Shown here: positions 4,759 to 58,737 of the stretch, piece after piece
Numbering within the stretch: position 1 is the first letter of the stretch
Layout: every line of letters starts with the position of its first letter
Assembly: GCA_951406725.2 (NCBI GenBank)
Contig: OX597838.1
Span: 44,702,001 to 44,766,000, forward strand
Length of the DNA stretch: 64,000 nucleotides
Direction: 5' to 3'
Source of the DNA: Octopus vulgaris
Lineage: Eukaryota
Made by a program: the position numbers and the translations under genes
The notes under the pieces: generated by a model
The model's database searches: none
The model's input: only the letters and a program-made list of their open reading frames with translations
Told to the model about the DNA's origin: nothing

Positions 4759-5109
4759 GCGACTCATCAAAGTTGTGTCTCACGCTTCAATGAAACAATC
4801 TATGCCACATCCAATGGGAATTATCCGTTTACAGAACTGGATAATAGAATTAACAAAACTTGGCGATGCGTGAGGATTTATTTGCAACCAGTGTGCATGG
4901 TGAAGTGTTTGTACATGAATGCTAGAAGATAGAAGTGTGGCAGTGACTTAATTAATATTCAGGCAACGATAGATATACATAATCTCCTAACTTTTGAGAG
5001 AATAATGTTCCAGTCTGCGTGGCATGGACTTAACTTCGATGAAATACTTTTGGTTTTGTCGCCGATATTCACACGGTGAAAGCATTGAACACACCGCTGC
5101 CATTACAAC
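4759..5109 (-). pseudogene. Decayed phase-1/phase-1 exon, possibly an Ig-like domain
   Basis: TTTGCAG| acceptor and |GTAAGT donor, 351 nt; [40 protein letters not shown]... with two frameshifts and several stops. Confidence 0.4.
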
Positions 5110-5116
5110 CTGCAAA

Positions 5117-5199
<83 letters not shown>

Positions 5200-5713
5200 G
5201 TATGTATATATATATATACATATATATATACACATATATACGCATACATACGCACACACATATATACATACATATATGTATATATATGTATGTATATATA
5301 CATATATATTTATATTATATATTATATATATATGTATACATACATACATACATACATACATACATACATACATACATACATACATACATACATACATACA
5401 TACATACACGCATTAAACAAGAAACAGCAAGTCTCGTATAAGACAAGGCTCGACTAATTCTTCAGTGAAGGAAACAAGATTTGTCTTGTGAAAACCCTGT
5501 TCTCGACATCCATTCATCCATTCAGCTTCCATCCAAATACTTTAGATTGTGATTATCCTACCTTTCTAAAGAGTTGTTTGCAAAACATGCATACGTATAT
5601 ACATACATACATACATACATACATACATAAATACACAGAAGAGACGCACCTATAGTATACGTTTATATGTATTTATGCATGTATGTTTGGGTGTGCGTGT
5701 ATGTGGATGGGTG

Positions 5714-5757
<44 letters not shown>

Positions 5758-5873
5758 TGATGCTCTTGACAGAAATCTTCATTCATTATATTTTGTTGTT
5801 CCATTACATGCACACACACACGCACACACACACACATACACACACATATATATACATATATAAATATATATAC

Positions 5874-5924
<51 letters not shown>

Positions 5925-6476
5925 TAAATAACGCACACAGAGTAAATTTTTCTCTCAATTCCATCCTAGCTCTCTTTCCTTTCTTTCTTACTGTCATCCT
6001 CTCTCTCTGCCCCTACTCCCCTCACTCCCCTATTTCTCTTTCCCTTCACCCCCTCTCTCTGTATTTCTTTCTCTCTTCTCTTGCCACCCTCCCTCTCTTT
6101 TTTCAGTCACACATTCATGTATATATGAAAATGTGAAAATTATAAAAGGTAAAATTTTAAAAGAATCAAGTTCCGAAATGTGGAAATTGCTGTGACGAAA
6201 GATACGGCTACGTTTTAAATGAGTTAGGGCGACGAAGATTGATAGCATTCCGTAGTTCAATTGGATTATTTTCAGTGAATGGAGATTAGCTATAGATAAA
6301 TATATATAGGTGACAACCTATATATCTAACAATCGCAGTCAACTCACTGGTTGAGCAATCCAATTATTGTCGTAGGAAATCCGTTATTCAATCCAAATGC
6401 TCAATGCCTGCTTTGTGTGTAAGCCAACTACATATTGGTATCGAGAGGTTATATACTGCAGTTATATCTCTCTATC

Positions 6477-6524
<48 letters not shown>

Positions 6525-6859
6525 CCTTTCTATGGATATATATATATATACATACATATACATATATACATATATACATACGTATATATATATGTATATA
6601 TATATATATATATATGGATATATGCATATATGTGTGCCAGTATGCATGTGTATAAACAAATGTAAATATGCACACACACTCACACATACGCACACACACA
6701 AACACATACACCATAGACATATAGGTTTAGTAATGCTAAGAAGAATGGCAGGAGCGGCGGTGTGGTAAGAAGCTTGCTTTCCAACCACATCGTCCTGGGT
6801 TCAGTCGCACTGTGTGGCACCTTCGGGGATATCTAGCGGAAGCAACAGAGCGACACAAC

Positions 6860-7099
6860 GGAATGGTTTCTCCTTTCCTTCCCTAAGCAGATCGGATTTG
6901 AAATCAGAATGTGGAGAGGCAAAAATATAGCGAAAAGCATTTCTGCCGACGCGCCGCCAACAATTCGGCCATGCGGCCACCAGCAGAGCAATGTGAAATG
7001 AAGTGTTTTGCACAACGTTCCGTCCGGTCTGGGTATCGAACCTAAGATCTAGCGATCTTGAGTGCAACACTCTAACCACTAGGCCTAGTGATTAAACGC

Positions 7100-7194
<95 letters not shown>

Positions 7195-7572
7195 CGATTG
7201 CGCGAGCGCGATATTCAGTTGATTTAAACATTTATTCGAAGAGAAATTACAATATTATAGAACCTATAATTTAAAAATAACATTTGGTTGGAAAGCCTTG
7301 TGACGTTTTTGACATGCTCACTTTGTGACAACTGCTTCAATATGGTGAAATAAGTATGACATTTTACATTGTAATATTCTTCTCTTCTTCGCTGATTACT
7401 TTATATCATTGTGTATCGATGTTTGCCCTTTTAAAACTAGTTTAGATGAGAAGCATACCAGATACCGCATGCTGAGCGAATCCAAAAGCAGCTCCCCGGC
7501 TATGAAAGCCGTAAGAAATGTTCGTTCCGTCTTATTTTATGGAGTTTCGTAATTTAAATTCTAACTCACCAA
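6860..7572 (-). repeat. Left arm of an inverted duplication (partner 9858-10481), including a family C SINE
   Basis: 7200-7572 is a near-identical reverse complement of 9858-10230; the SINE part is more diverged. Confidence 0.9.
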
Positions 7573-8500
7573 ATGTTGGTACTTTAGATCCAGCAACTAT
7601 TGGTCTCAGTTTGAGGTTAGTAGGTCTTAGTAATTTTATGTCTTGGTTTTTCTGTTTTTTTTAATGCTCTCTTTATTTCGCGGTTTTTGTGGATTTGGGG
7701 TAATCTGTTGAAATTGCTCTCTTTGATAACAGAGTTGCATAAATAATATTTTTCTTTGTCTGTGAAGGAATCTTGGTATTCATTAACTAGTGCTTTTATT
7801 TTATTCATTATTGCTTTCTCCAGGTGCCTTGGTTCTACCTTGTAATAGGTTTGGTCTGTTAGAATTTCCAATATTTTATCTATAAGGTAGTCTTTGTCCA
7901 TGATTACTATCGCCTTTCCCTTATCGGCTTATTTTAGGATGATTGAATTGTCCTTCTTCAGTGTCAGTAAGGCTTCAAAACCTTCACGAAGGTTTTTTTT
8001 TTATTTTTGCCTTTACAGTTACTAAGGGGAAATTTCGAAATTGTGTCAGTATATGCGTCTAAATGTTTGTCATTCACCTTGTAGGAGGTGAAGTGGGATT
8101 TATTTCTGACAATTGATTCGCCATTTATATCCTTATTGCCGAAGAATTCTATAAACCGGTGGTGATGGTTAAAATGCTCAAAATCAGCTTTTAGTTCAAT
8201 GAGATTAGGGATGGGTGTCGGGGTAAATTTGAAACCATGCAATAGGAGATTCATCTCATTCTTGTTGAGGTTTCTAATTGACAAATTTATGATCTTCGGG
8301 TCTATATGTTCTGTGTGTTCATTAAAATTTTCTGTTGCGTCGGGCGCAATTATGATATTTTTTTTCCCTAAAAAAGGAATTGTATTATTGTGCTTCCATT
8401 TTTTGTGGTTTCCGGAGTTCTGGTTCCCTCGAAGGTGAGGGGATGTTTCATGTTCTTTGCATGTATCTCGTTGTCTATAGGTTCTGTTTTCATCCCCTCT
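7573..8500 (-). mobile_element. Penelope-like element, 5' half (N-terminal domain and start of RT), degenerate
   Basis: KIINLSIRNLNKNEMNLLLHGFKFTPTP, ADKGKAIVIMDK, LPQIHK, LRPIVAG. Confidence 0.88.
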
Positions 8501-8580
8501 TCTATTTTTACTCTTTATTGTATATACATATCTACATGCATAAATGCATACATACATATTTACTTATATATATATATATG

Positions 8581-8633
<53 letters not shown>

Positions 8634-9039
8634 ACACACATACACACATACATACACATACACACACATACACACACATACACACACATATATAACGTGC
8701 GTTTTATTGTTGAACAAATCAGTTACACATGTAAGAACTGTTTTCTTCCGGTAAATTGAAAAATGAAATTTAACATTTAGGATTTTTCACACAAATAGTA
8801 TAGGATGCATATTGACACTCTCATCTTGGTGCCGGTCGAGGGAGTGTAAAGATAAATGCTTATTCGATATTTAGTATAAATGGCAATAACCCTTCCAACG
8901 GATAAAGAGGAACGAAAGAAAAATAATCTCACATCCAAGCCATAGGAGCAAATAAAATGTACAAAACATATAACATAGGCTAATTGATTTCTTCATAGAT
9001 AAAAAAACAACCACGTTGGATACAGCTGTAACACACTTC

Positions 9040-9319
9040 AACCCATTTTTGTTATTATTTATATTACACTTCACTCGGAACCTTCTTTGCATTGGATCTT
9101 GAGCCCACAGTGGACCGTGGACGGCATGCTGGAGTATACTCTCGTGGGATTTTACGTATACGTTGTGTTTGATCGATACTTGTAGATGTATTCGTAACTG
9201 GAATCTGTATGTGCTTTGGTAAGGACGTGGATGTCGTTGCACGCTCCTAAAAAACAGGTATGCTGTCCAGGACACTACCTTGGTACCTTTCTTATCAAAA
9301 TACCGCGATTCTATTCTGC
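9040..9319 (-). pseudogene. Possible decayed exon (Ig C2-like end)
   Basis: TTATTTTTAG| acceptor; GRIESRYFDKKGTKVVSWTAYLF, then after a frameshift in a T run LGACNDIHV...SSMPSTVHCGLKIQC; donor not clear. Confidence 0.3.
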
Positions 9320-9414
9320 CTAAAAATAATTACGAACAAACACACATACACACACCTATATGTATCTATATTACAGACAATAAATTTTGAAGGAATAAGA
9401 TGAAAACATTTTGA

Positions 9415-9480
9415 CGGCAAACGGCTACGGGACTCGAACTCACATTACTCTGATACCGGCCGAGTACTCTACCATTAAAG
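9415..9480 (-). mobile_element. tRNA-like SINE head
   Basis: Minus strand TAATGGTAGAG (A box) and GAGTTCGAGTCCCGTAGCCG (B box); related to 35870-36265. Confidence 0.55.
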
Positions 9481-9536
9481 GTGTACTCTGATATTCAACA
9501 CACAATTAATGTGTCCCCTCATGTTTTTTTACGCAG

Positions 9537-9860
9537 TAGAAAAGATTTTAATATCTGACTATTATGGCTTTCTAGGAAATCCAACGACCACATACAATGT
9601 CTGGAAGGGCTGTGCTGTTGATTGATTCGGAGGAGAGAATAGGATTTTGAATTTAATTACTATTGAAATTATTCCTTTATGTCAGTTGAAAAGAATAACA
9701 CAAACACAGCCAGGATTAAATGGTTCTATTAACTTTTCTTGTCTTCCCATTTGGAATATCCTTCAAGATTTATTACAGCATATAGAAAAATGCGAGAAAA
9801 ATTATTTTTCTTGTTTCTGAAAATGTAAGGATGTGAAACAAATTGATAACCTTCTACTTG
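9537..9860 (+). pseudogene. 324-nt symmetric phase-1 exon with two in-frame TGA codons, Ig-domain sized
   Basis: TTTTTTTACGCAG| acceptor and G|GTGAGT donor; single frame EKILISDYYGFLGNPTTTYNVWKGCAVD*FGG...NFSCLPIWNIL...YFSCF*KCKDVKQIDNLLL. Confidence 0.55.
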
Positions 9861-10481
9861 GTGAGTTAGTATTTAAATTACGAAACTCCATAAAATAAGA
9901 CGGAACGAACATTTCTTACGGCTTTCATGGCTGGGGAGCTGCTTTTGGATTCGCTCAGCATGCGGTATCTGGTATGCTTCTCATCTAAACTAGTTTTAAA
10001 AGGGCAAACATCGATACACAATGATATAAAGTAATCAGCGAAGAAGAGAAGAATATTACAATGTAAAATGTCATACTTATTTCACCATATTGAAGCAGTT
10101 GTCACAAAGTGAGCATGTCAAAAACGTCACAAGGCTTTCCAACCAAATGTTATTTTTAAATTATAGGTTCTATAATACTGTGATTTCTTTTCGAATAAAT
10201 GTTTAAATCAACTGAATATCGCGCGTGCGCACACACACACACAAAGTCGCTTGGCCTAGTGGTTAGAGTGTTGCACTCAAGATCACTAGATCATAGGTTC
10301 GATACCCAGACCGGGCGGAACGTTGTGCAAAACACTTCATTTCACATTGCTCTGCTAGTGGCAGAACGGCCGAATTGTTGGCGGCACGTCGGTAGAAATG
10401 CGCTTCGCTTTACTTTTTGCCTCTCCACATTCTGATTCCCACTCCTCCGACCTGCCTAGAGAGAAAACGAGAAAGCATTCC
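9858..10481 (+). repeat. Right arm of the inverted duplication (partner 6860-7572)
   Basis: Reverse-complement match from TTGGTGAGTTAG to AGAAAGCATTCC. Confidence 0.9.
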
Positions 10482-10489
10482 AGTATTTT

Positions 10490-12235
10490 TGTCAGGTCTA
10501 GAATTCCTCCAGCACATTCCGCCTACTGTTCCAGAAGGTACTATGCTTATAAGCTTTGTTGTCACCAGTCTTTATACGAATACACCTCACACTTTGGGTC
10601 TGGAAATAGTCAAACACTGAGTAGAGAAACATACAGGACTTATAAATGAACCCTTCAAAACTGATTTCATCACCAAAGCCACACGCCTGGTACTGGAAGA
10701 AAACACCTTCAGATTCGATAATAAAACATAAGGACGAACAAAGGGCGCGCTTATGGGGACACGGTTTTCACTCTCATATTCTAACCTAGTCATATGTGAC
10801 TTGGAAGAAAAGCTTTATGAGGAAGTAAAGAGAACCTTTAATCAGTATTACAAAAAATACATTATTAAAAAGTGGAAACGCTTCCTCGATAGCTACTTCA
10901 TCTTTTGGTACAAATCGAATGAGGCCCTACAAACATTTAATAATATACTCACCACACTTCATCCACCCATCAAATTCATGACAGAATCCAGTTGCAATGA
11001 ATTGCCATTCCTGGATATCCACATAAAAATACAAAACGCCACAATCACAACAGAGATATTTTACGAAAAAAAAAAAAGAGAAACGAACACACACCAATAC
11101 TTGAATTTCTACTCTTGCCATCCCTCACACATCTAAAGGGACATCCCATACAGCATGGCAAGAGGCATCTGCAATATAGTGATTGACCCCCAAATTCGTC
11201 AAATCCGACTCAACGAGCTCAAAGAATTCCTAACAAAACATAAATACCCCTTAGGATTAATAAACGAGGAAATTAAAAAGGCAATGAAGCTGAACATTGA
11301 ACAACTAAGAACACAAAAGGAAAAAATTAATGAACACACAATGAAAAAATCTGATTGACAAAAGCCCCATACGAAACAATGGGCGTCAGCCAGAAAGTCT
11401 CAGAAAACACCTCACAAGAGCAAAATTCACACCAGAGAATGAAACAGAATTCTCCGTAAAAGAATATGGAGATAGCAAATGTGAAACATGCAACAACAAC
11501 ACTAACTTTAAATACTTAGAAAGTAGTTCCCACATAAAATTCAAGAGCGGATTCTCGTTGAAAGTAAATACAGATATGAACTGCAAGATGCAGAATCACA
11601 TATACTGTATTACTTGCCTCAACCACAAAGAAAATTACATCGGCGAAACAAACAATTCTCTCTGCCAGCGTGCAAGAATCCATCGACAACACATCCGACA
11701 AGAGGAATTGCGCAAGATTCCACTGAGCAAGCATCTAGAAATATGCGGTTAAGAGGAATTCAAAATCTTTCCCTTTTACAAATGTTCAAGTGATGATCCA
11801 CAATTCCGAGAAGCAATAGAGCTATCTCTCTCTATATAAACGGCAGTTTGTCTGTGTGCGTGTCTGTGTGTCTGTTAGGTTGTACCCTCACCCTGACCAC
11901 CACGGCTTTCAGCCGATTCTGATGAAACTTGACACACACATAGCCCAATGTCATAATTCAAAACTAACGCAGCGAAAATTTTGAAAAGTTCCCCCAGTTC
12001 TGGAAAAAAATCGATAAATTCGACATGGGGTCGAGAATCAGAAACACAAACCACAGACTGTCTAGGGGACGCAACTCGACCTTTTTAACTCTCAAAAAAA
12101 TTTACCATAATTTTTTTGCTATTTTTTGGCTATAACTCTCTAAAAATGCTTTATAGTTATTTCCCTTACAAACCCGAGCAACGCCGGGCAATACTGCTAG
12201 TACTTCATAAAAAAATTCACTTCAAAATTAAATGA
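10490..12235 (+). mobile_element. Penelope-like element, 3' half (RT core and GIY-YIG), degenerate, interrupted by a Helitron
   Basis: VTSLYTNTPH, GALMGTRFS, WKRFLDS, LPFLDI, YLNFYSCHP, HIYCITC...YIGET...RARIH; EAIEL|YFIKKF resumes after the Helitron. Confidence 0.92.
11825..12200 (+). mobile_element. Non-autonomous Helitron
   Basis: 5' TC, 3' hairpin CCCGAGCAACGCCGGG plus CTAG; inserted between A and T with no TSD; removing it restores the PLE frame. Confidence 0.9.
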
Positions 12236-12313
12236 AATGTTTGAAAGAGAAGCAAAGGAACTACATTTTTATCATTAATCTTTAATATTAATAATGATCA
12301 ACGAAGAGATAGG

Positions 12314-18687: not shown

Positions 18688-18769
<82 letters not shown>

Positions 18770-18876
18770 GGAGTAAACACATAAATGTGAAACAAGGTGG
18801 AAAAAAGAGTACTCAAATACTAGTGGTAGAGTAATATGCTTTATTTAAATTAAAGCAGCAGAAAATTCAACAAAAC

Positions 18877-18914
18877 CTGTTACTCTGAGTTTCACGTTCC
18901 CGTTCGTCGGACAG
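18877..18914 (-). ncRNA. Minimal type I hammerhead motif (left arm of hairpin)
   Basis: Exact reverse complement of 18940-18977. Confidence 0.7.
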
Positions 18915-18939
18915 TTTTTGCTAGAAATTCTAGCAAAAA

Positions 18940-18977
18940 CTGTCCGACGAACGGGAACGTGAAACTCAGAGTAACAG
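18940..18977 (+). ncRNA. Minimal type I hammerhead motif, CCGACGA core
   Basis: CTGT-CCGACGA-ACG(GGAA)CGT-GAA-ACTC(A)GAGT-A|ACAG; all three stems pair. Confidence 0.75.
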
Positions 18978-19010
18978 GTTTTGTTCAATTTTTCTACTGC
19001 TTTAAATAAA

Positions 19011-19088
<78 letters not shown>

Positions 19089-24595: not shown

Positions 24596-26097
<1,502 letters not shown>

Positions 26098-26833
26098 GTG
26101 CAGTCTTCTAGCGCCTACAGAGTATCTCAACAGGCACGATAGAGCTGCACAATATATTCACTGGGTAATCTGTAAAAACCTGGATTTGCCCCATGAAAAA
26201 AACTGGTGGGAACACAAACCACCCCCAGTGCTTGAAAATGACCACATCTCATTCCTCTGGAACTTCACCATTCAAACTGACAGGAAGATAGATGCAAATA
26301 GGCCAGACATCATATTGAAAGACTTCAAACAAAGAACATGCCTCCTCATTGATATGACTGTCCCAATCGATATAAACGTATCTGTCAGGACCTACCAAAA
26401 ACTGAGCAAATATAAAGATCTTGAAATAGAAATCAGCAAAATGTGGAAGCTGAAGACTAAAACAATACCTGTTGTCATAGGTGCCCTGGGAATGATAGCA
26501 AAAGGGGCTGATAGCTACCTAACTCAGATACCAGGAAACCCAAAAATGGCAGAAGTTCAAAAGATAGTGCTCATGGGAACTGCTCATATCCTACGCAAAA
26601 TACTCTCCATGTAACCTCAAGGTTTAAAACAACCATAATTTTCGGTTTAAAAAAAAAAAAAAAAAAAAAAACTTTTTTTTTTAGACATTCATTAGTACAA
26701 CATCCCCACCCCCAAATATATGGCACACTAGGCATAACAACAACATGAACTTCCAACCCTGTTGTCTCTTGAGGTCTCTGGGTGAGACTTGGATCCAACT
26801 TGTACAAATATAAAGCAAAAGTCAAACATAGAA
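26098..26833 (+). mobile_element. Second copy of the same R4/Dong-type family, inverted relative to the first
   Basis: YLNRHDRAAQYIHW...RPDIILKDF...KLSKYKDLE; flanked by (AAT)n. Confidence 0.9.
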
Positions 26834-27112: not shown

Positions 27113-27152
<40 letters not shown>

Positions 27153-27211
27153 CATTATTATTATTATTATTAAATAATAGATATCATCATCATCATTATT
27201 ATTATTATTAT

Positions 27212-27560
27212 TCAGTAGTTTTATTTTTATAGCCTGCTTTCACTTCACTACCGAGCACAGCTCTGTGTGCCTTGGGTATGTGCTGTGATTTGTTGTGATG
27301 CTCTGATGGTTATTGTATGGAAAGTGTTCTGCGTAGGATGTGTGTAGTGCCTAGTAGTGCAATTTTCTGTATGCTATATGTGTTTGTAAGTCCTGGTGTT
27401 TTTGTTATGTATTTGTCTGAATATTTTTTTATCATGCCTAATGCACCTACTATGATAGGAATTGTTTCTGTTTTTAGATTCCACATTCTGGTTACCTCTA
27501 TTTCCAGGTCATTGTATTTTGAGAGTTTCTCCATTTCTTTTAGAGACACGTTGTCTCTAA
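27212..27560 (-). mobile_element. 3' fragment of a second R4/Dong-type family
   Basis: EKLSKYNDLEIEVTRMWNLKTETIPIIVGALG; lies in a TAA array. Confidence 0.85.
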
Positions 27561-27622
<62 letters not shown>

Positions 27623-27623
<1 letters not shown>

Positions 27624-27971
27624 CAGTAGTTTTATTTTTATAGCCTGCTTTCACTTCACTACCGAGCACAGCTCTGTGTGCCTTGGGTATGTGCTGTGAT
27701 TTGTTGTGATGCTCTGATGGTTATTGTATGGAAAGTGTTCTGCGTAGGATGTGTGTAGTGCCTAGTAGTGCAATTTTCTGTATGCTATATGTGTTTGTAA
27801 GTCCTGGTGTTTTTGTTATGTATTTGTCTGAATATTTTTTTATCATGCCTAATGCACCTACTATGATAGGAATTGTTTCTGTTTTTAGATTCCACATTCT
27901 GGTTACCTCTATTTCCAGGTCATTGTATTTTGAGAGTTTCTCCATTTCTTTTAGAGACACGTTGTCTCTAA
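27623..27971 (-). mobile_element. Tandem duplicate of 27212-27560
   Basis: Apparently identical sequence and identical end points, offset 411 bp. Confidence 0.9.
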
Positions 27972-28053
<82 letters not shown>

Positions 28054-42906: not shown

Positions 42907-42945
<39 letters not shown>

Positions 42946-43012
42946 TTTGATACTTTGATAGGTTTCGGCCATTATTGGCCCAGGTCATGTCTAACTTAAT
43001 AGCACCACCTGG

Positions 43013-43096
<84 letters not shown>

Positions 43097-43144: not shown

Positions 43145-43206
<62 letters not shown>

Positions 43207-43237
43207 TTTATTTAAAGCAGCAGAAAATTCAACAAAA

Positions 43238-43269
<32 letters not shown>

Positions 43270-43277
<8 letters not shown>

Positions 43278-44465
43278 TTCAGAATGAGATAAAAAAAAAC
43301 AAGACTATGAAGATTTTAGAACATTTATAAATAGGTCTTACAGCTGTTTCCAGGATATTTTTTATATCCCTTCATCGGAGACGATGTGAGAAAATGGTTA
43401 AGCAATAGTTAATTTAGATAAGATACGAAATAGAGAGTGAAGTGGAGGAATGAAAATAGATGTGAGATATGCAGGGATATTGCATTTGTAGATCCATTAC
43501 TTAGGCAGAATGGTATACATATAAGATTCCAATAGTATCTAAAATTGGTCATTGTAAATACTAATAGTATTTAAAATTGGTTATTCCAAGTATAGAGTTT
43601 GTAGAAAATATATATGTGAAGATGTATACAGATGTATATATTAGACATGCATATATATATTTATTCAGATGTTAATACATATCAATATCTACTACAAAGA
43701 TTTTACCTGTCCAACCACGTAATCTATATTTCTAAATTCTTCATTCCACCATATTACTACCCCTCTCTCTGCCCCATCACTATCACTACATAACTGACAC
43801 TCCTTTACCTTTTACACTCTTTATACCTCTCTGTCTCTAATCACACCACATTCTTTCTATCCGACGCTCCTTTACTCTGTACCCTATCATCTTTTTACAC
43901 TCTAATATCTTTCTCTCCCTATCACCCTCATCTCCCCATTCCTACTTTCAAATTATCTTGACTCACCACTAACTGGCACACTTTCCCTATCTTCATCTCT
44001 TCATTATCTCTCTCCTTGTTTTTTTTTATCTCCATTTTCTTTATTTACTTTATTCATCTCTTCCTGTTTTTTCTTTTTTCTTCTCTTTTTTTCTCTTTCT
44101 TTATTCCTCTCTTCCTGTTTTCGGTTTGATGGTGGGTAGTCTTTCACTCTGTGAAATGGACGGGCAGAATCTACTATGATCATGGCTGTCTAGATAGTTT
44201 TTGTCATAGTTCCCTTGCGTTGACTCCACGGAACTTTACTTCTTTCTCACAGATAATCTCAATGCATTTCTCATAGTAAAATGTATGTTTATAGATCGGT
44301 TGAGTGAAATTACGTCCATACTACCCATAACACAAGCTGTGAGGTCGTTGGAGTGGTAGCAACAACTAATTCTACTGAGGAGATTCTCCGTGCTCACACA
44401 GACATCAGGGGGAATCCCAGTGAGTGGTCGTAATATCTGTGAGAGGAAGAAATCCAAAAACGAAA
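43270..44465 (-). mobile_element. Deleted Penelope-like element (RT fragment and 3' repeat)
   Basis: FLSQILRPL...VSTENLL...VMGSMDVISL; purine-rich spacer, then an HHR. Confidence 0.65.
43335..43382 (-). ncRNA. Minimal hammerhead motif, CCGATGA core
   Basis: GTCT-CCGATGA-A-GGGATAT(AAAAA)ATATCCT-G-GAA-ACAGCTGT-A|AGAC. Confidence 0.75.
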
Positions 44466-44701
44466 CTTATATATATGTCTGTATGTGTGTGCGTGCGCGC
44501 GTGTGTGGGTGTATATATAGTTGAAATTTACCTGGAAAACAAAAGACGAAGACAGGTGATCAAACAACAAGCAGGTGTATTAGTTTGACATTCGTGAAGG
44601 TGAGAAAGTCTTTTTCGTTTGGTGTCTACGCTCTTCAACATAAAGGAATACGACGAAATAAGCAGAAAGAAAAAACTTTGGAGTTAGCGGTCAAATGTAT
44701 T

Positions 44702-48353: not shown

Positions 48354-48613
48354 TATATATATATATATTTTTTTTAATATATATATACAGATAAAGGGTG
48401 AAATATAATTAATTTAATAAAATCAACAAATTTCACCAAATAGTTTTTCGGTATGGAAAAGGACCATATTCGGTAAAATATAATGGCTGCTATTTCTAAT
48501 ACTTTCGGTATGTGGTCTAGCAACCTGTTGCAAAGACCCTCATTGTTATAAATATATATATATATATATAGCAATAATAATTCTCTAAAAGAGATATAGA
48601 CAGTAACTGCTCG

Positions 48614-49007: not shown

Positions 49008-49055
<48 letters not shown>

Positions 49056-49281
49056 TATATATAGGTGCTATATTGTTCTCGCTACTTGTAGCCTCATTTA
49101 TGTCAAAAGATCGTTGTCGCCGGGAAAATTTCTACTTCAGTAGTCAAAACCATTGAAAAGGTTGAAAGACGCAACGAAAATTTTAGAAAAGTAAAGAAAC
49201 CGTAGTGTGTGTTAAATTATAAGGCACTAAAAGAGAATGACTCTCTCCAGTCACAACAGAATATATATATATATATATATA

Positions 49282-50533: not shown

Positions 50534-50702
50534 CGTATATATATATGAAAAAAAATTTCTATTGACTATTTTATACATGCCAGGCCACTGGCGGAAATAT
50601 TTCTATAATTTTCCTACCCTGTATATATATATATACATATATATATAAATGGTAGATCGTTAGCCTCTACACACATTTTTTCTCTCCTTGTTTTCTGTGT
50701 TG

Positions 50703-50834: not shown

Positions 50835-51856
50835 TCTTTATATATAAAACTGAGAATGTGTGTCTGTCTGTCTGTGTGTTTCCCTAAAACTTGAGAACTA
50901 CACAACCAATTTCATTCAAATTTTGCACATGCCTTCCTTAGGGTCCATGTGGTTTCATGGGCAAAAAAAAGTTCAACTTCTTGCCTAGAGCGAGCCCATA
51001 GCAATATCATATCTTCTCTACTATTTCAGTATTACGCGTTAAAAGTGAAACAAAAACATTTCTCTATTTTATGTCAGATACTTTCACTTTAACAATAAAA
51101 AATAATAATAACAATTGAATTATATGTAGTAAGTAATAATTAAAATCAAACTAAAGTAGAATATAATCGTAACATAAAAAAAAAAATTAAAATAGCAATT
51201 GGTATAAAATTACATCAATGACTTGAACTTGAATAAGTGGTTTCACATGAATGGGAATAAAATTAGCGTGCAGAAATGGAATAGTCTAGATGGATAATAC
51301 AAAATTAAATTAAAGAAAAAACTATTGTCTATAAAGTATACAATGTAGAGGAAAAAGAAGATTTGAACACATGGAGGAAAGCACCTTCGAAAAGTGTCTT
51401 GGTGCGACTATGAAAGCCATCTAATCAGAGGCGGTAAATTCTCCACAATAGAAGCAAGTTTCGAGTCAACGGAGCGTGCAAGGGAGTACTCGACTCGAAC
51501 TTGCAAATTGGAAATATTTTATTTTTACCTTTATATATGGGACGTAGGACGTCCCGGAAAAAAATTTTAAATGCCCCTCCCCGAAGTAGAAGTAGGCTGG
51601 ATTGTAGCCACACTTCTATATAAGAGGGAGGACACGATACAATTGATCGAAATTACAAGAGACGGGCCTACAATTCCAGTCTGTTATATATTTTGAGTAT
51701 TGTTATCACTAGCGATATCAAGATATAACTTTCTATTTTGTATTTTATGTGTAGATGTAGATATATAGATGTACATGTAATATGTACACATATATATATA
51801 CACATATATACATGCACTAGCACTATGACCCGCCAACGACGGGTCTTTAATGCTAG
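50835..51856 (+). mobile_element. Non-autonomous Helitron (related fragment at ~42595-42840)
   Basis: A|TC 5' end, (GTCT)n, 3' hairpin GACCCGCCAACGACGGGTC plus CTAG|T. Confidence 0.85.
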
Positions 51857-54712: not shown

Positions 54713-57700
54713 ACCCTCCAGTCTCCCCTCCTTCCCAATATACTTCCCCCTCATCCTCACCCCAACCCTTCTGTTATTCCAACCCCTATCTCTCCTCCCA
54801 ACTTTCCATTACCCCACCACCCACCCACATCTAACTTTTCCACCCCTCCCCACTTTAGTCTGTTGTTATCATTCCTCCTGATCTTCCCCTCTCTGAAGCG
54901 GGGCGCTCAATTCTCAGCAGGGGTCCAGTTACTGCATCCAGTAACGAATTTCAGACCCGTGCTGATATTCATAGCTTTGTGCGCCGTGTCAGGTTATATT
55001 CACTATTGCACAACACTTCTCCTGCATCTAACGAAGAGGATCGCTTCACCAACCTCGGCTGCCGACCATTCCACTGAACGCCAGCTCCTGGCCAATTCCA
55101 AGTAATCAGTCATTTTGCAGGCATCTGCCAATGTGTTGTGGACCGGTTTAACTTTCGCAGGGGTCTCAGACATCTAGAGTTCTCCCCGACCGAACTCTAA
55201 ACTCTTCGATGTCTCCGACGCTGCAAAGACATTATCATAAAACTACAAGGCTGGAGCCGTGGTGGTGTGGTGCGCAGACCTCTACAAAGCTGAAGGTCTC
55301 AGCCAACTTCAAGACACCTACTTCTATTACTCTCTATCTTCAACCCCCACGCCTAGCTACCAAATGACTGTCTTCCACTTTCGATGACCTCAGCTCTTCC
55401 TCCCCATCTTCCTCCCACCGCCCCCAATCTCACTATACGCACTCCACGCATCCCCACCATTTACTCCCTCTCCAAAATCCACAAGCCCATGAAACTTGAC
55501 GGCCCCATCGTCTCCGCCTGTAACTGTCTCGCGGAACTGATATACGTCGACCGTGTCCTTGCCCCCTAGTGGCTTCCATCCCCGCCCACATCCATGACGC
55601 TAACCATGCTCTCCGTCTTTCTCCTTCCCTAATGGACCTGCTAAACTTCTCTTCAATATTAATATCAAAAGTCTATATACGATGATCCCACACACCAAAG
55701 GACTTCGAGCCCTCAAACACTTCCTACACCTTCGACCCAACCCCCAAGTTGACACGTCTATACTGCTTCGTAAGGCCGAACTTATTCTCTCCCTCTACTG
55801 CATCTCCTTCGCGGGGAGTTTTACCAACAATTTCGGGAGTGCCCATGGGAACGAGAATGGGCCCCAACTATGCGAAACTGTTCGTTGGCTACGTTGAAGC
55901 CCAAATATTTTCAAGATTCACGGGCCAAATCCCGAACAATATGGTCGTTATATTGATGACCGTATCGGTGCGACCTCGCTCTGCTGCAAACAACTAGCCT
56001 CCTTCCTCTCTTATTTCCATTCCTTCCATCCTACCCTCGAATTCACCTGCACTATTTCGAACACTTCCACTGCCTTTCTCGATATTTCGGCCAATATACA
56101 CAACTTCGCTCTCACTACCTCCATCCACTACAAACCTACCCACTCACACTCATACCTCAACTTCTCCTCCTCCCACCATACCCACGTGAAGCTCTCCATC
56201 TCCTACTCCCAATTCCTCCGTCTGCGCAGGCTCTGCAGTGACAACCATGACTTTGAGACTCAGTCTCAACTCATGGCTCACTATTTCAGCCTTCGTGGAT
56301 ATACCCTCACGTATATATAACCTCGTGGATATACCAGAGCACGTTCTGTGGACCGTTCCACTACGCTCTCTCCCCGCATACGCCTCAAAGTTGCCCGTCT
56401 TCCGTTACCCCTCACCTACCACCCTCCACCCTGTCTTTCCAACGCACTTTTCTCCTAGCCTTCCGGCGACACTAGTGCGACCACTCCACCTCACACATCT
56501 TCCCCAACCTACGCCTTTCCTCCTTCAAACGAGCCCACAACCTACGTTACCTCCTGGTCCACAATTTCTTCCCTAACCCCACCTCCCGACCTCGCTCGTT
56601 CCTTTGCTTCCGCACCTGCCCCTACATCTCTAACATCACCATCCTCACAGGCACCCATCATCGTCCCTATTATATCACTGACTCCTTTACCTGCACTTCT
56701 AGCAGCATCATTTACTGCATCTCTTCCTGTTTCTTCCCTTCTCTGTACATCGTTCAAGCGGGACGCCGCTTGGCTGACCGGTTCGCGGAGCACCTCCGAG
56801 ACATTGGACTCGGCAAGGAAACCCCAGCTTCACACCATTTCCGCTCTACCGGTCATTCATTACAACACCTGTATTCGGTTTGTCTTTGCACAGAGGCCAT
56901 CCAGATTCCCACCTTCTCTCTTTGTTCCTTTGCGTTACATGGGCTCAACTACCCTCCCCTCTTCCACTGACTCCCCTCCTCCCCTCTCTTCATCTGACAC
57001 GTACTTCTCTTCAGTCCTACCCACCTCTCCTCACTTCTTCTCTTCATTCCTATCCACCTACTCCCTTACATCCACACCCCACCCCAAATATTCTACTCCC
57101 ACATGCCCCACCCTATCCCTACACCTCCACCCCAACCCCCACGTCCTCACCCCACCCCCACATCTCCACTCCACCCCCACATCTTCACCCCAACCCCACA
57201 TCTTCGCCCCACCCCACATCTTCACCCCACCCCACATCCTCACCCCACCCCAACATCCTTACCCCACCTATATCCTGCCCCATCCCTACATCCTCACTCC
57301 TACATCTTCACTCACACATCCTCAAGCTAAACCCACACCCCACCCACACATCCCATACTCCCCACACAGACGACATCCCCTCTCTCCCACTCCCCCACAC
57401 CACACACCACCACAATACATCACACCACACCACTCCACCCGCATTAGCGCTGACACTTTCCAGCACCCACACCATCATCTACACACCCACACATTACAGT
57501 CGCACACAGCCACACGTCAAAGTCACTAGCTCCTACCACACGCCCACACTTACACACTCTCACATGCACACGCACGCTCACCTTCGTTTTGGGATCACCA
57601 GTACTTTATTATCTCCCTTTTCCCTAATTCCTATGTCCAGCTACCTTTTCCCAACCACTCGCTATGAGTGATCGCTAAATCCACAAGTTTTTTTTTTATT

Positions 57701-57889: not shown

Positions 57890-58737
57890 TATACATATAT
57901 ATATGTATATATATACTGTTGTGTCTGGGGAGTCATTTTCTTTGTGTGCCTTATAATTTAATACACTCACCGGTAAAATTTCCATTTTATTTTCCTAAAA
58001 TTTTCGTTGCCTCTTGCAAACACACGAACTCATATACAGAATCTTGCAAACCAAATCCCAAAACGAAATATATATATATTCCCGATTTCGTGGAACGCCT
58101 TTTATGAGGAAGAGTTCTTCCTTATTAGGTGGAAGGAATAATCTACAATTACTGCACCAGATATTCTATGTGGTGAGTTATTCCAACTGGTATCTCATTG
58201 ACTGTCTTTCATAGGGGTCGTAATGCGTTGTCTGTTCTGTTTAGTAAGGATTTTGTGGAAGTGCCAAACATATCTTTGAAGGAGGAGGGGAATGTCAATA
58301 ATCTGGATATGATAAAAATTAATATAGTGACGAATTTCTCTTCTCTGAAAAATGTCCATTCATCTTGTATGAAATCTTTAAAACAAATATCCTTAATAAT
58401 AAATATAAATTTAAAACGCTTATGATTGTAACACGTATCATAAGATATATGTTACTAATCGAAGAGAAATTTAGGCACACACACATAGGGGCGCGCGCGT
58501 GTGTGTGTGGCTATGTATTAATTCATACATATGTATGTGAGGGTGTGCATGTGTACATATGTACACATGTATATATGTACACCTAAACAGACATATATAC
58601 ATATACTATTGTTCATAAGTATATGTGCATCTATGTATATGAATATATATATATATATATATATATGTGACCTCGTGTGTACCGTTGGCGATTTCTTCTC
58701 CTCTGTCTTCCCTTCTCTGGATCTTTCCTTCTCCTAT

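What the first reader, a model, noticed from the sequence alone, without database searches (positions are those of the whole stretch)
43206..43242. 37-bp insert in a TA array begins exactly at a predicted HHR cleavage site
Seen: on the minus strand it reads ACAGATTTTGTTGAATTTTCTGCTGCTTTAAATAAAG between pure (TA)n runs. This matches the sequence just downstream of the predicted GUA| cut of the 18877/18940 hammerhead (ACAGGTTTTGTT...). It also ends on the same AATAAAG as the right hairpin arm at 19011. Inference: this is a genomic copy of a self-cleaved RNA 3' product, which would be indirect evidence that the CCGACGA-core ribozyme cut in vivo and that its product was reverse transcribed.
Basis: partly seen in the sequence, partly recalled or inferred. 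Interest (0 to 1): 0.8.

Follow-up and report, generated by a model that had tools for sequence, protein, structure and literature searches.

The report
Short Penelope-type fragment at ribozyme cut
A 37-base piece of a very abundant repeat, likely the 3' end of a Penelope-like jumping gene, sits in a TA microsatellite and starts within one base of a predicted hammerhead ribozyme cut, but this single case may well be an ordinary truncation and does not show that the ribozyme cuts in the animal.

Summary
The 37 bases at 43206-43242 (-) lie between TA arrays and match the element at 18768-19011: 30/31 to one arm, 34/38 to the other; 0 of 200 shuffles score as well. That element has Penelope-like anatomy: an inverted 5'-truncated pair, two 3' ends (one with a 71-nt extension), TA targets and a type I hammerhead-like motif with a U4C core. 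The family is very abundant (5,037-8,281 contigs per DNA run), and 0 of 13 core positions show a variant at 1% or more. 'Exactly' is really +1 or +2, because the first A may belong to the array. Chance for one fragment is 0.6-4%, and about 6-32% over the 10 such segments in the window. The one population look showed no peak at the cut: 0 of the 24 loose-end rows shown lie there (510 hidden), and depth shows no step. Contigs see solo 37-mers poorly, so this is weak. Most likely an ordinary 5'-truncated copy (0.55). Run-off from ribozyme-cleaved RNA stays open (0.3) and is easily tested on an assembly.

The parts
43206..43242 (-). 37-bp solo fragment of family A: from +1/+2 after the predicted cut to the inner 3' end (AATAAAG)
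43150..43205 (.). TA array downstream of the fragment (target)
43243..43272 (.). TA array upstream of the fragment; also the 3' flank of the neighbouring family B copy
18768..19011 (.). Longer family A insertion between TA arrays: head-to-head inverted pair with axis at 18927/18928
18928..19011 (+). Right arm: hammerhead-like motif plus 38 nt, ends at the inner 3' end (AATAAAG then TA)
18944..18973 (+). Hammerhead-like core of the right arm: CCGACGA, short helix II with GGAA loop, GAAA, palindromic helix III, GTA; predicted cut after 18973
   Evidence: not recognised by Rfam
18839..18927 (-). Left arm: same motif, predicted cut after 18881; carries a 5-nt duplication absent from many other copies
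18768..18838 (-). 71-nt extension (tail-like) on the left arm only, ending at the outer 3' end before TA; part of the family, not local flank
   Evidence: tables 2 and 8 (contigs run through it into the motif)
43273..43400 (-). Neighbouring, unrelated family B 3' end with its own hammerhead-like motif (core CCGATGA 43378-43372, predicted cut after 43339), ending in the same TA array

Best explanation
The 37-mer is a short copy of the 3' end of a very abundant repeat family, likely a Penelope-like retroelement, and was likely inserted into a TA array by target-primed reverse transcription that stopped early by ordinary 5' truncation, its match to the predicted ribozyme cut being probably coincidence. 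Steps: (1) shown: same family, TA target, 3' junction at the family's inner 3' end; (2) inferred from published Penelope-like elements: the element's endonuclease nicks (TA)n and its reverse transcriptase starts inside the RNA at the inner start site (AATAAAG); (3) inferred: synthesis ended after 36-37 nt and joined the upstream target, with one base (A) that fits both element and array; (4) not shown: any role for self-cleavage.
For: Family anatomy fits the published pattern of 5'-truncated, inverted copies with a tail at one end only and TA targets (PMC8557442 passages; window). Two 3' ends match the two internal reverse-transcription starts of Poseidon from Anolis (PMC11167929). In three DNA-type runs depth shows no step at the cut (X1: 2.49M, 2.58M, 2.50M in bins 18874-79, 18880-85, 18886-91), table 6 lists no pile-up, and 0 of 24 loose-end rows shown lie at the cut; upstream-side departures instead cluster at 18916-18918 (157, 172, 128 contigs in X1, X4, X7). 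In the window 9 of 10 hammerhead-family segments span their cut (8 were found by the motif, so they must). For Poseidon, uncleaved RNA was the dominant template in vitro and no RNA-seq reads began or ended at the cut.
Against: The match is within 1 nt, which uniform truncation gives only 0.6-3.8% of the time for one fragment. The core is invariant across thousands of contigs, so the motif is probably under selection. The negative is weak: all four runs were contigs, identical copies collapse, depth is capped and smoothed, a solo copy matches my reference over only 31-39 nt, and 510 of 534 loose-end rows were hidden. No parent open reading frame was linked to this family.
Confidence: 0.55

Rival explanations
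1. Run-off copy of self-cleaved RNA: the hammerhead, probably as a dimer or with protein help, cuts after GUA; the 3' product is used as template and reverse transcription runs off its 5' end, leaving copies that begin at ACAG.
For: Start at +1/+2. Core 0 of 13 positions variable at 1% or more, while variation sits at the helix I mismatch, the loop 3 centre and position 11.1. Helix III palindrome forms a predicted -7.4 kcal/mol self-duplex, as needed for a dimer. Poseidon's hammerhead cleaves in vitro with protein help. R2 ribozyme cuts shape genomic 5' junctions (PMC3774820 abstract). U4C is a known natural variant that lowers but does not abolish activity (PMC3088659 passage).
Against: One case. 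No peak among the rows shown. U4C core, helix II of only 2 constant pairs (the closing pair is broken in about 32-47% of depth), and the hammerhead fold is 2.7 kcal/mol above the minimum-energy fold of the monomer. In Poseidon the shortest active 5'-truncated template began at +20, just upstream of the cut at +26.
Confidence: 0.3
2. Reverse transcriptase stalled at the folded but uncut three-way junction, so copies end near the cut without any cleavage.
For: The motif is conserved and helix I (4 + 7 predicted pairs) spans +1 to +12.
Against: Many copies read straight through the motif. A stall would be expected to blur over several bases.
Confidence: 0.07
3. Remnant of a longer insertion (for example an inverted pair like 18768-19011) cut back afterwards by hairpin deletion or TA slippage.
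For: An 85-bp near-perfect palindrome of this family exists in the window, and inverted joints are seen in other copies (table 5).
Against: A deletion using the element's own TA at -2/-1 would leave one more A than is seen. Both junctions are clean.
Confidence: 0.08

Closest known systems
5'-truncated and inverted copies of endonuclease-bearing Penelope-like elements with hammerhead-bearing pseudo-LTRs (Cervera and de la Pena 2014, PMC4209133; Craig et al. 2021, PMC8557442)
   Same: Type I hammerhead-like motif with a tiny palindromic helix III near the 3' end; head-to-head inverted truncated pair; optional extension at one end only; (TA)n targets; very high copy number.
   Different: Optional extension is 71 nt, not 30-40; the 37-mer is not that tail but the stretch before it; core has C at position 4; helix II is closed by a variable A.N pair; no parent reading frame was linked here.
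Poseidon from Anolis carolinensis (PAc; Frangieh et al. 2024, PMC11167929)
   Same: Two 3' ends downstream of the hammerhead; outer end 85-92 nt past the cut in PAc (my subtraction from their coordinates) against 113 nt in this window's left arm, which includes a 5-nt duplication, and 62-101 nt for four other motifs in the window; AT-rich targets.
   Different: In PAc the reading frame starts inside the ribozyme; here the frames downstream close within about 25 codons. They found no RNA ends at the cut and, in the parts I read, report no genomic copies starting there.
R2 retrotransposon HDV-like ribozyme (Eickbush et al. 2013, PMC3774820)
   Same: Precedent that a ribozyme cut defines the 5' junction of genomic copies, with chance microhomology at the join.
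   Different: Different ribozyme class and element class; there the ribozyme lies at the 5' end of the full element and activity is demonstrated.
Non-LTR retrozymes of animals (PMC7229834; bioRxiv 10.64898/2026.07.22.740005)
   Same: Non-coding, type I hammerhead, related to Penelope-like pseudo-LTRs.
   Different: Retrozymes are head-to-tail tandems of 150-450 bp; the copies here are a solo fragment and a head-to-head pair.

Membership tests
Penelope-like element 3' end (pseudo-LTR) fragment | Hammerhead-like motif near the 3' end | tested here: met
   Motif at 18944-18973 and its mirror; descriptor finds 8 motifs in the window against 0-1 (mean 0.13) in 30 shuffles
Penelope-like element 3' end (pseudo-LTR) fragment | 5'-truncated copies, inverted pair, extension at one end only | tested here: met
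   18768-19011; opposite-strand joints in other copies, table 5
Penelope-like element 3' end (pseudo-LTR) fragment | Two alternative 3' ends, tail of 30-40 bp between them | tested here: inconclusive
   Two ends present (19011/43206 and 18768; TA-joined inner end also table 7), but 71 nt apart
Penelope-like element 3' end (pseudo-LTR) fragment | Insertion into microsatellites such as (TA)n | tested here: met
   3 of 3 family A 3' junctions in the window join TA
Penelope-like element 3' end (pseudo-LTR) fragment | Linked to a reading frame for telomerase-like reverse transcriptase plus GIY-YIG endonuclease | tested here: inconclusive
   No frame next to family A; upstream sequences in contigs are mixed (agreement 0.5). 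Unlinked remnants exist in the window: GIY-YIG at 11345-11749 (E 1.5e-4, just under the Pfam cut-off) and 55898-56317
Type I hammerhead ribozyme | Core C3 U4 G5 A6 N7 G8 A9, G12 A13 A14 A15.1, U16.1 H17 | tested here: inconclusive
   All present except U4, which is C throughout the family; U4C is a reported natural, weaker variant; no Rfam hammerhead match at E up to 10
Type I hammerhead ribozyme | Three helices around the core, helix II closed by a G10.1-C11.1-type pair | tested here: not met
   Helix I (4+7 pairs) and palindromic helix III fit; helix II has 2 constant pairs and the closing A.N is unpaired in about 32-47% of depth
Type I hammerhead ribozyme | Conservation of core with variation in unpaired positions | tested here: met
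   0 of 13 core positions with a variant at 1% or more; large variants at 3 non-core places, 2 of them predicted unpaired beforehand; contigs were filtered at 82% likeness
Type I hammerhead ribozyme | Self-cleavage after NUH | not testable with these tools
   Needs in vitro transcription; the one RNA-type run laid was contigs only
Genomic copy of a ribozyme-cleaved RNA | Family-wide peak of 5' ends at the cut | tested here: inconclusive
   0 of 24 rows shown at the cut, 510 hidden; table 6 empty; low sensitivity for solo copies; no genome held
Non-LTR retrozyme | Head-to-tail tandem units each with a hammerhead | tested here: not met
   No tandem of family A in the window; other loci not examined for tandems

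The most novel reading that the evidence does not exclude
The U4C, two-pair-helix-II hammerhead of this abundant Penelope-type family cleaves in vivo, and its 3' product is reverse transcribed into TA arrays, leaving a class of copies that start at the cut: a genomic fossil record of Penelope hammerhead activity, for which the papers I read report no in vivo evidence.
Probability: 0.3. Interest if true: 0.6.

Novelty: new member of a known kind. Interest (0 to 1): 0.3.

Why it matters
What the hammerheads of animal Penelope-like elements do is open: minimal forms cut poorly in vitro (PMC4209133), cleavage was not needed for insertion in vitro, and no RNA ends were found at the cut (PMC11167929). 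A peak of genomic 5' ends at the cut in a family with this many copies would be in vivo evidence of cleavage and would show that a U4C core with a minimal helix II works. The test costs one BLAST on an assembly. Without that peak the fragment is an ordinary truncated repeat.

Tried and rejected
No genome is held, so the copy census could not be run. Rfam: 0 matches at gathering score in the window; at E up to 10 over 18800-19050, 21 matches, none a hammerhead, the best being microRNA models that fit the palindrome; a microRNA reading was rejected on that ground. Pattern scans for further copies: 8 metagenome hits, all 8 chance matches without element context; 0 in viral contigs; 0 in prokaryote genomes. 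Using translated frames as a route to other copies failed: 0 of 34 hits carried element words; no candidate for the hairpin frame. I first took the 37-mer for the known 30-40-bp 'tail'; rejected, because the optional extension is the 71 nt beyond it. My first model had a 3-pair helix II; breaks the closing pair. Depth and any uncovered part are not used as copy number. The RNA-type run X15 (kind guessed) held the family in 668 contigs, which shows neither expression nor RNA ends. Earlier scan notes: nothing by sequence or place; word hits concerned other genomes. Literature: searches listed no paper reporting Penelope-like copies that start at the hammerhead cut or a CCGA-core family in cephalopods; the library lacks most subscription papers, the Terminon paper was not held, and PAc Supplementary Fig. 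S2, which plots copy ends, gave no readable text and may bear on this.

Full report
Observation. It aligns 30/31 with the left arm (18880-18850) and 34/38 with the right arm (18974-19011) of an inverted pair at 18839-19011. The alignment score is 57 against at most 34 in 200 dinucleotide shuffles. These are the only convincing matches in the window. The first A is also the last letter of the upstream array, so the true start is +1 or +2 after the predicted cut; a start at -2 or -1 would show one more A and is excluded unless a base was lost later.

The parent element. The whole insertion between TA arrays is 18768-19011: two head-to-head arms truncated at the same point (axis 18927/18928). The right arm stops 38 nt after the predicted cut, at AATAAAG, and joins TA. 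The left arm passes that site and runs 71 nt further before joining TA (113 nt after the cut, with a 5-nt duplication that many other copies lack). Craig et al. describe this layout for Penelope-like elements: 5'-truncated copies, an inverted copy at the 5' side, a tail at one end only, and TA targets (PMC8557442, 12 passages seen). Frangieh et al. showed that the two ends are two internal starts of reverse transcription (PMC11167929, parts 1-2 of 4 read). The 37-mer is therefore not the tail; it is the stretch from the cut region to the inner start site. The window is rich in such ends: a relaxed descriptor finds 8 hammerhead-like motifs against a mean of 0.13 in 30 local shuffles, four others ending 62-101 nt after their cut in a microsatellite-like flank. 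One lies about 800 nt downstream of a decayed frame (55898-56967) that resembles another reverse transcriptase/GIY-YIG remnant at 10732-11749. No frame could be tied to family A itself, so membership rests on anatomy. That the host looks like an octopus is my recollection of its SINEs and comes from no call.

The motif. It reads CCGACGA, a short helix II with a GGAA loop, GAAA, a palindromic helix III (predicted self-duplex -7.4 kcal/mol) and GUA, closed by a helix I of 4 + 7 predicted pairs. Rfam does not recognise it, and the monomer fold is -8.0 against a minimum of -10.7 kcal/mol. I laid 4 of 24 listed runs on the left arm: 8,281, 6,767, 5,037 and 668 contigs. Between 18870 and 18918, variants at 1% or more occur at 5 places: the helix I mismatch (18876; the insert's letter is the common variant, 26-47%), the loop 3 centre (18886; 17-33% summed), position 11.1 (18894; 32-47% summed) and a CpG at about 2%. 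None of the 13 core positions is listed. This points to selection on a hammerhead-like fold, with the caveats that contigs were filtered at 82% likeness and depth falls towards the core's 5' half. Against a working canonical ribozyme: position 4 is C (a natural variant with much lower in vitro activity per PMC3088659, passage seen) and helix II has only two constant pairs. Minimal Penelope hammerheads cut poorly in vitro (PMC4209133, parts 1-2 of 4 read). Activity is untested here.

Does the family start at the cut? No genome is held, so the direct census was not possible. In one search, table 6 lists no place where many molecules begin or end; depth has no step at the cut; and of 534 loose-end rows, the 24 shown (6 per run) include none at 18880. 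They include the TA-joined inner 3' end (21, 21, 10 contigs) and upstream departures at 18916-18918 (157, 172, 128 contigs), at the 5' edge of helix I, with mixed non-TA sequence that may reflect different parent subfamilies. So copies spanning the cut are abundant and cut-start copies are not visibly dominant. A minor peak is not excluded: identical copies collapse in contigs, depth is capped and smoothed over a word length, and a solo copy matches this reference over only 31-39 nt. In the window, BLAST with the flanks of all 8 motifs added two segments: a decayed copy at 44.5-44.7 kb that spans its cut and the 37-mer; 1 of 10 starts at a cut, though 8 of the 10 were found by the motif itself.

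Chance. With uniform truncation, one fragment lands on the two indistinguishable positions 0.6-3.8% of the time, depending on the range assumed. Over 10 segments that is about 6-32% (my arithmetic), and the case was picked because it coincided. The match raises the odds of the cleavage model a few-fold but cannot carry it.

Mechanism. Most likely (0.55): endonuclease nick in (TA)n, reverse transcription from the inner start site, early stop after 36-37 nt, join by a one-base fit. The first part is shown as anatomy, the enzymology is inferred from PAc. The main rival (0.3) is run-off from the cleaved 3' product; it has precedent in R2 (PMC3774820, abstract seen) and PAc's hammerhead does cut with protein help, but PAc used mainly uncleaved RNA and showed no RNA ends at the cut. 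Stalling at the folded junction (0.07) and later deletion from a longer copy (0.08) remain.

Verdict. A real feature and a sharp observation, best filed as a new member of a known kind. It does not by itself show in vivo cleavage. It does define a cheap, decisive test in a family with very many copies. Searches listed no report of Penelope-like copies starting at the cut; one key paper was not held and one supplementary figure on copy ends was unreadable. Interest 0.3; 0.6 if the peak is found.

Noticed in passing
window 43273-43400 (-), predicted cut after 43339: A second, unrelated hammerhead-like 3' end (core CCGATGA, longer helix II, palindromic helix III) ends in the same TA array 30 nt upstream of the 37-mer; the locus is a cluster of TA-targeted insertions.
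   Followed up: partly
window 18944, 18910(-), 43378(-), 47761(-) region, 58768 region: 5 of the 8 motifs found have C at core position 4 (CCGA), in four unrelated families; three of these families also have an extra A.N juxtaposition at the base of helix II. A lineage-wide U4C hammerhead type may exist; search listed no paper on it.
   Followed up: partly
window 42447(+), 44500-44700(-), 50734(+), 57758(+): Another minimal-hammerhead-like family (helix II AGAGCGTAGGCTC type) whose core reads CTGT instead of CTGA at position 6 in 3 of 3 motif hits; the 57758 copy follows a decayed reverse-transcriptase-like frame at 55898-56967.
   Followed up: partly
places 18916-18918: Most contigs leave the reference at the 5' edge of helix I into mixed sequences, and several inverted joints fall there too: either many parents share only the ribozyme-plus-tail module, or this is a preferred truncation point.
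   Followed up: no
window 42945-43015 (-): 71-bp insert between TA arrays with a GGCC-loop-GGCC hairpin followed by GAAAC but no clear first core half; possibly another Penelope-type end.
   Followed up: no
window 6921-12300: Decayed Penelope-like element with inverted arms (7187-7572 / 9858-10243), reverse-transcriptase-like frame 10732-11133 and GIY-YIG frame 11345-11749 preceded by a cysteine pair motif.
   Followed up: partly
window 48388-48551, 49052-49260, 50547-50621, 51801-51856, 57916-58067: Further short non-repetitive inserts between TA arrays, not assigned to families.
   Followed up: no
window 25038-26642 and 27147-28052: Inverted pair (544 nt, 95%) and 411-nt tandem of a LINE-like C-terminal frame flanked by (TTA)n arrays.
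   Followed up: no
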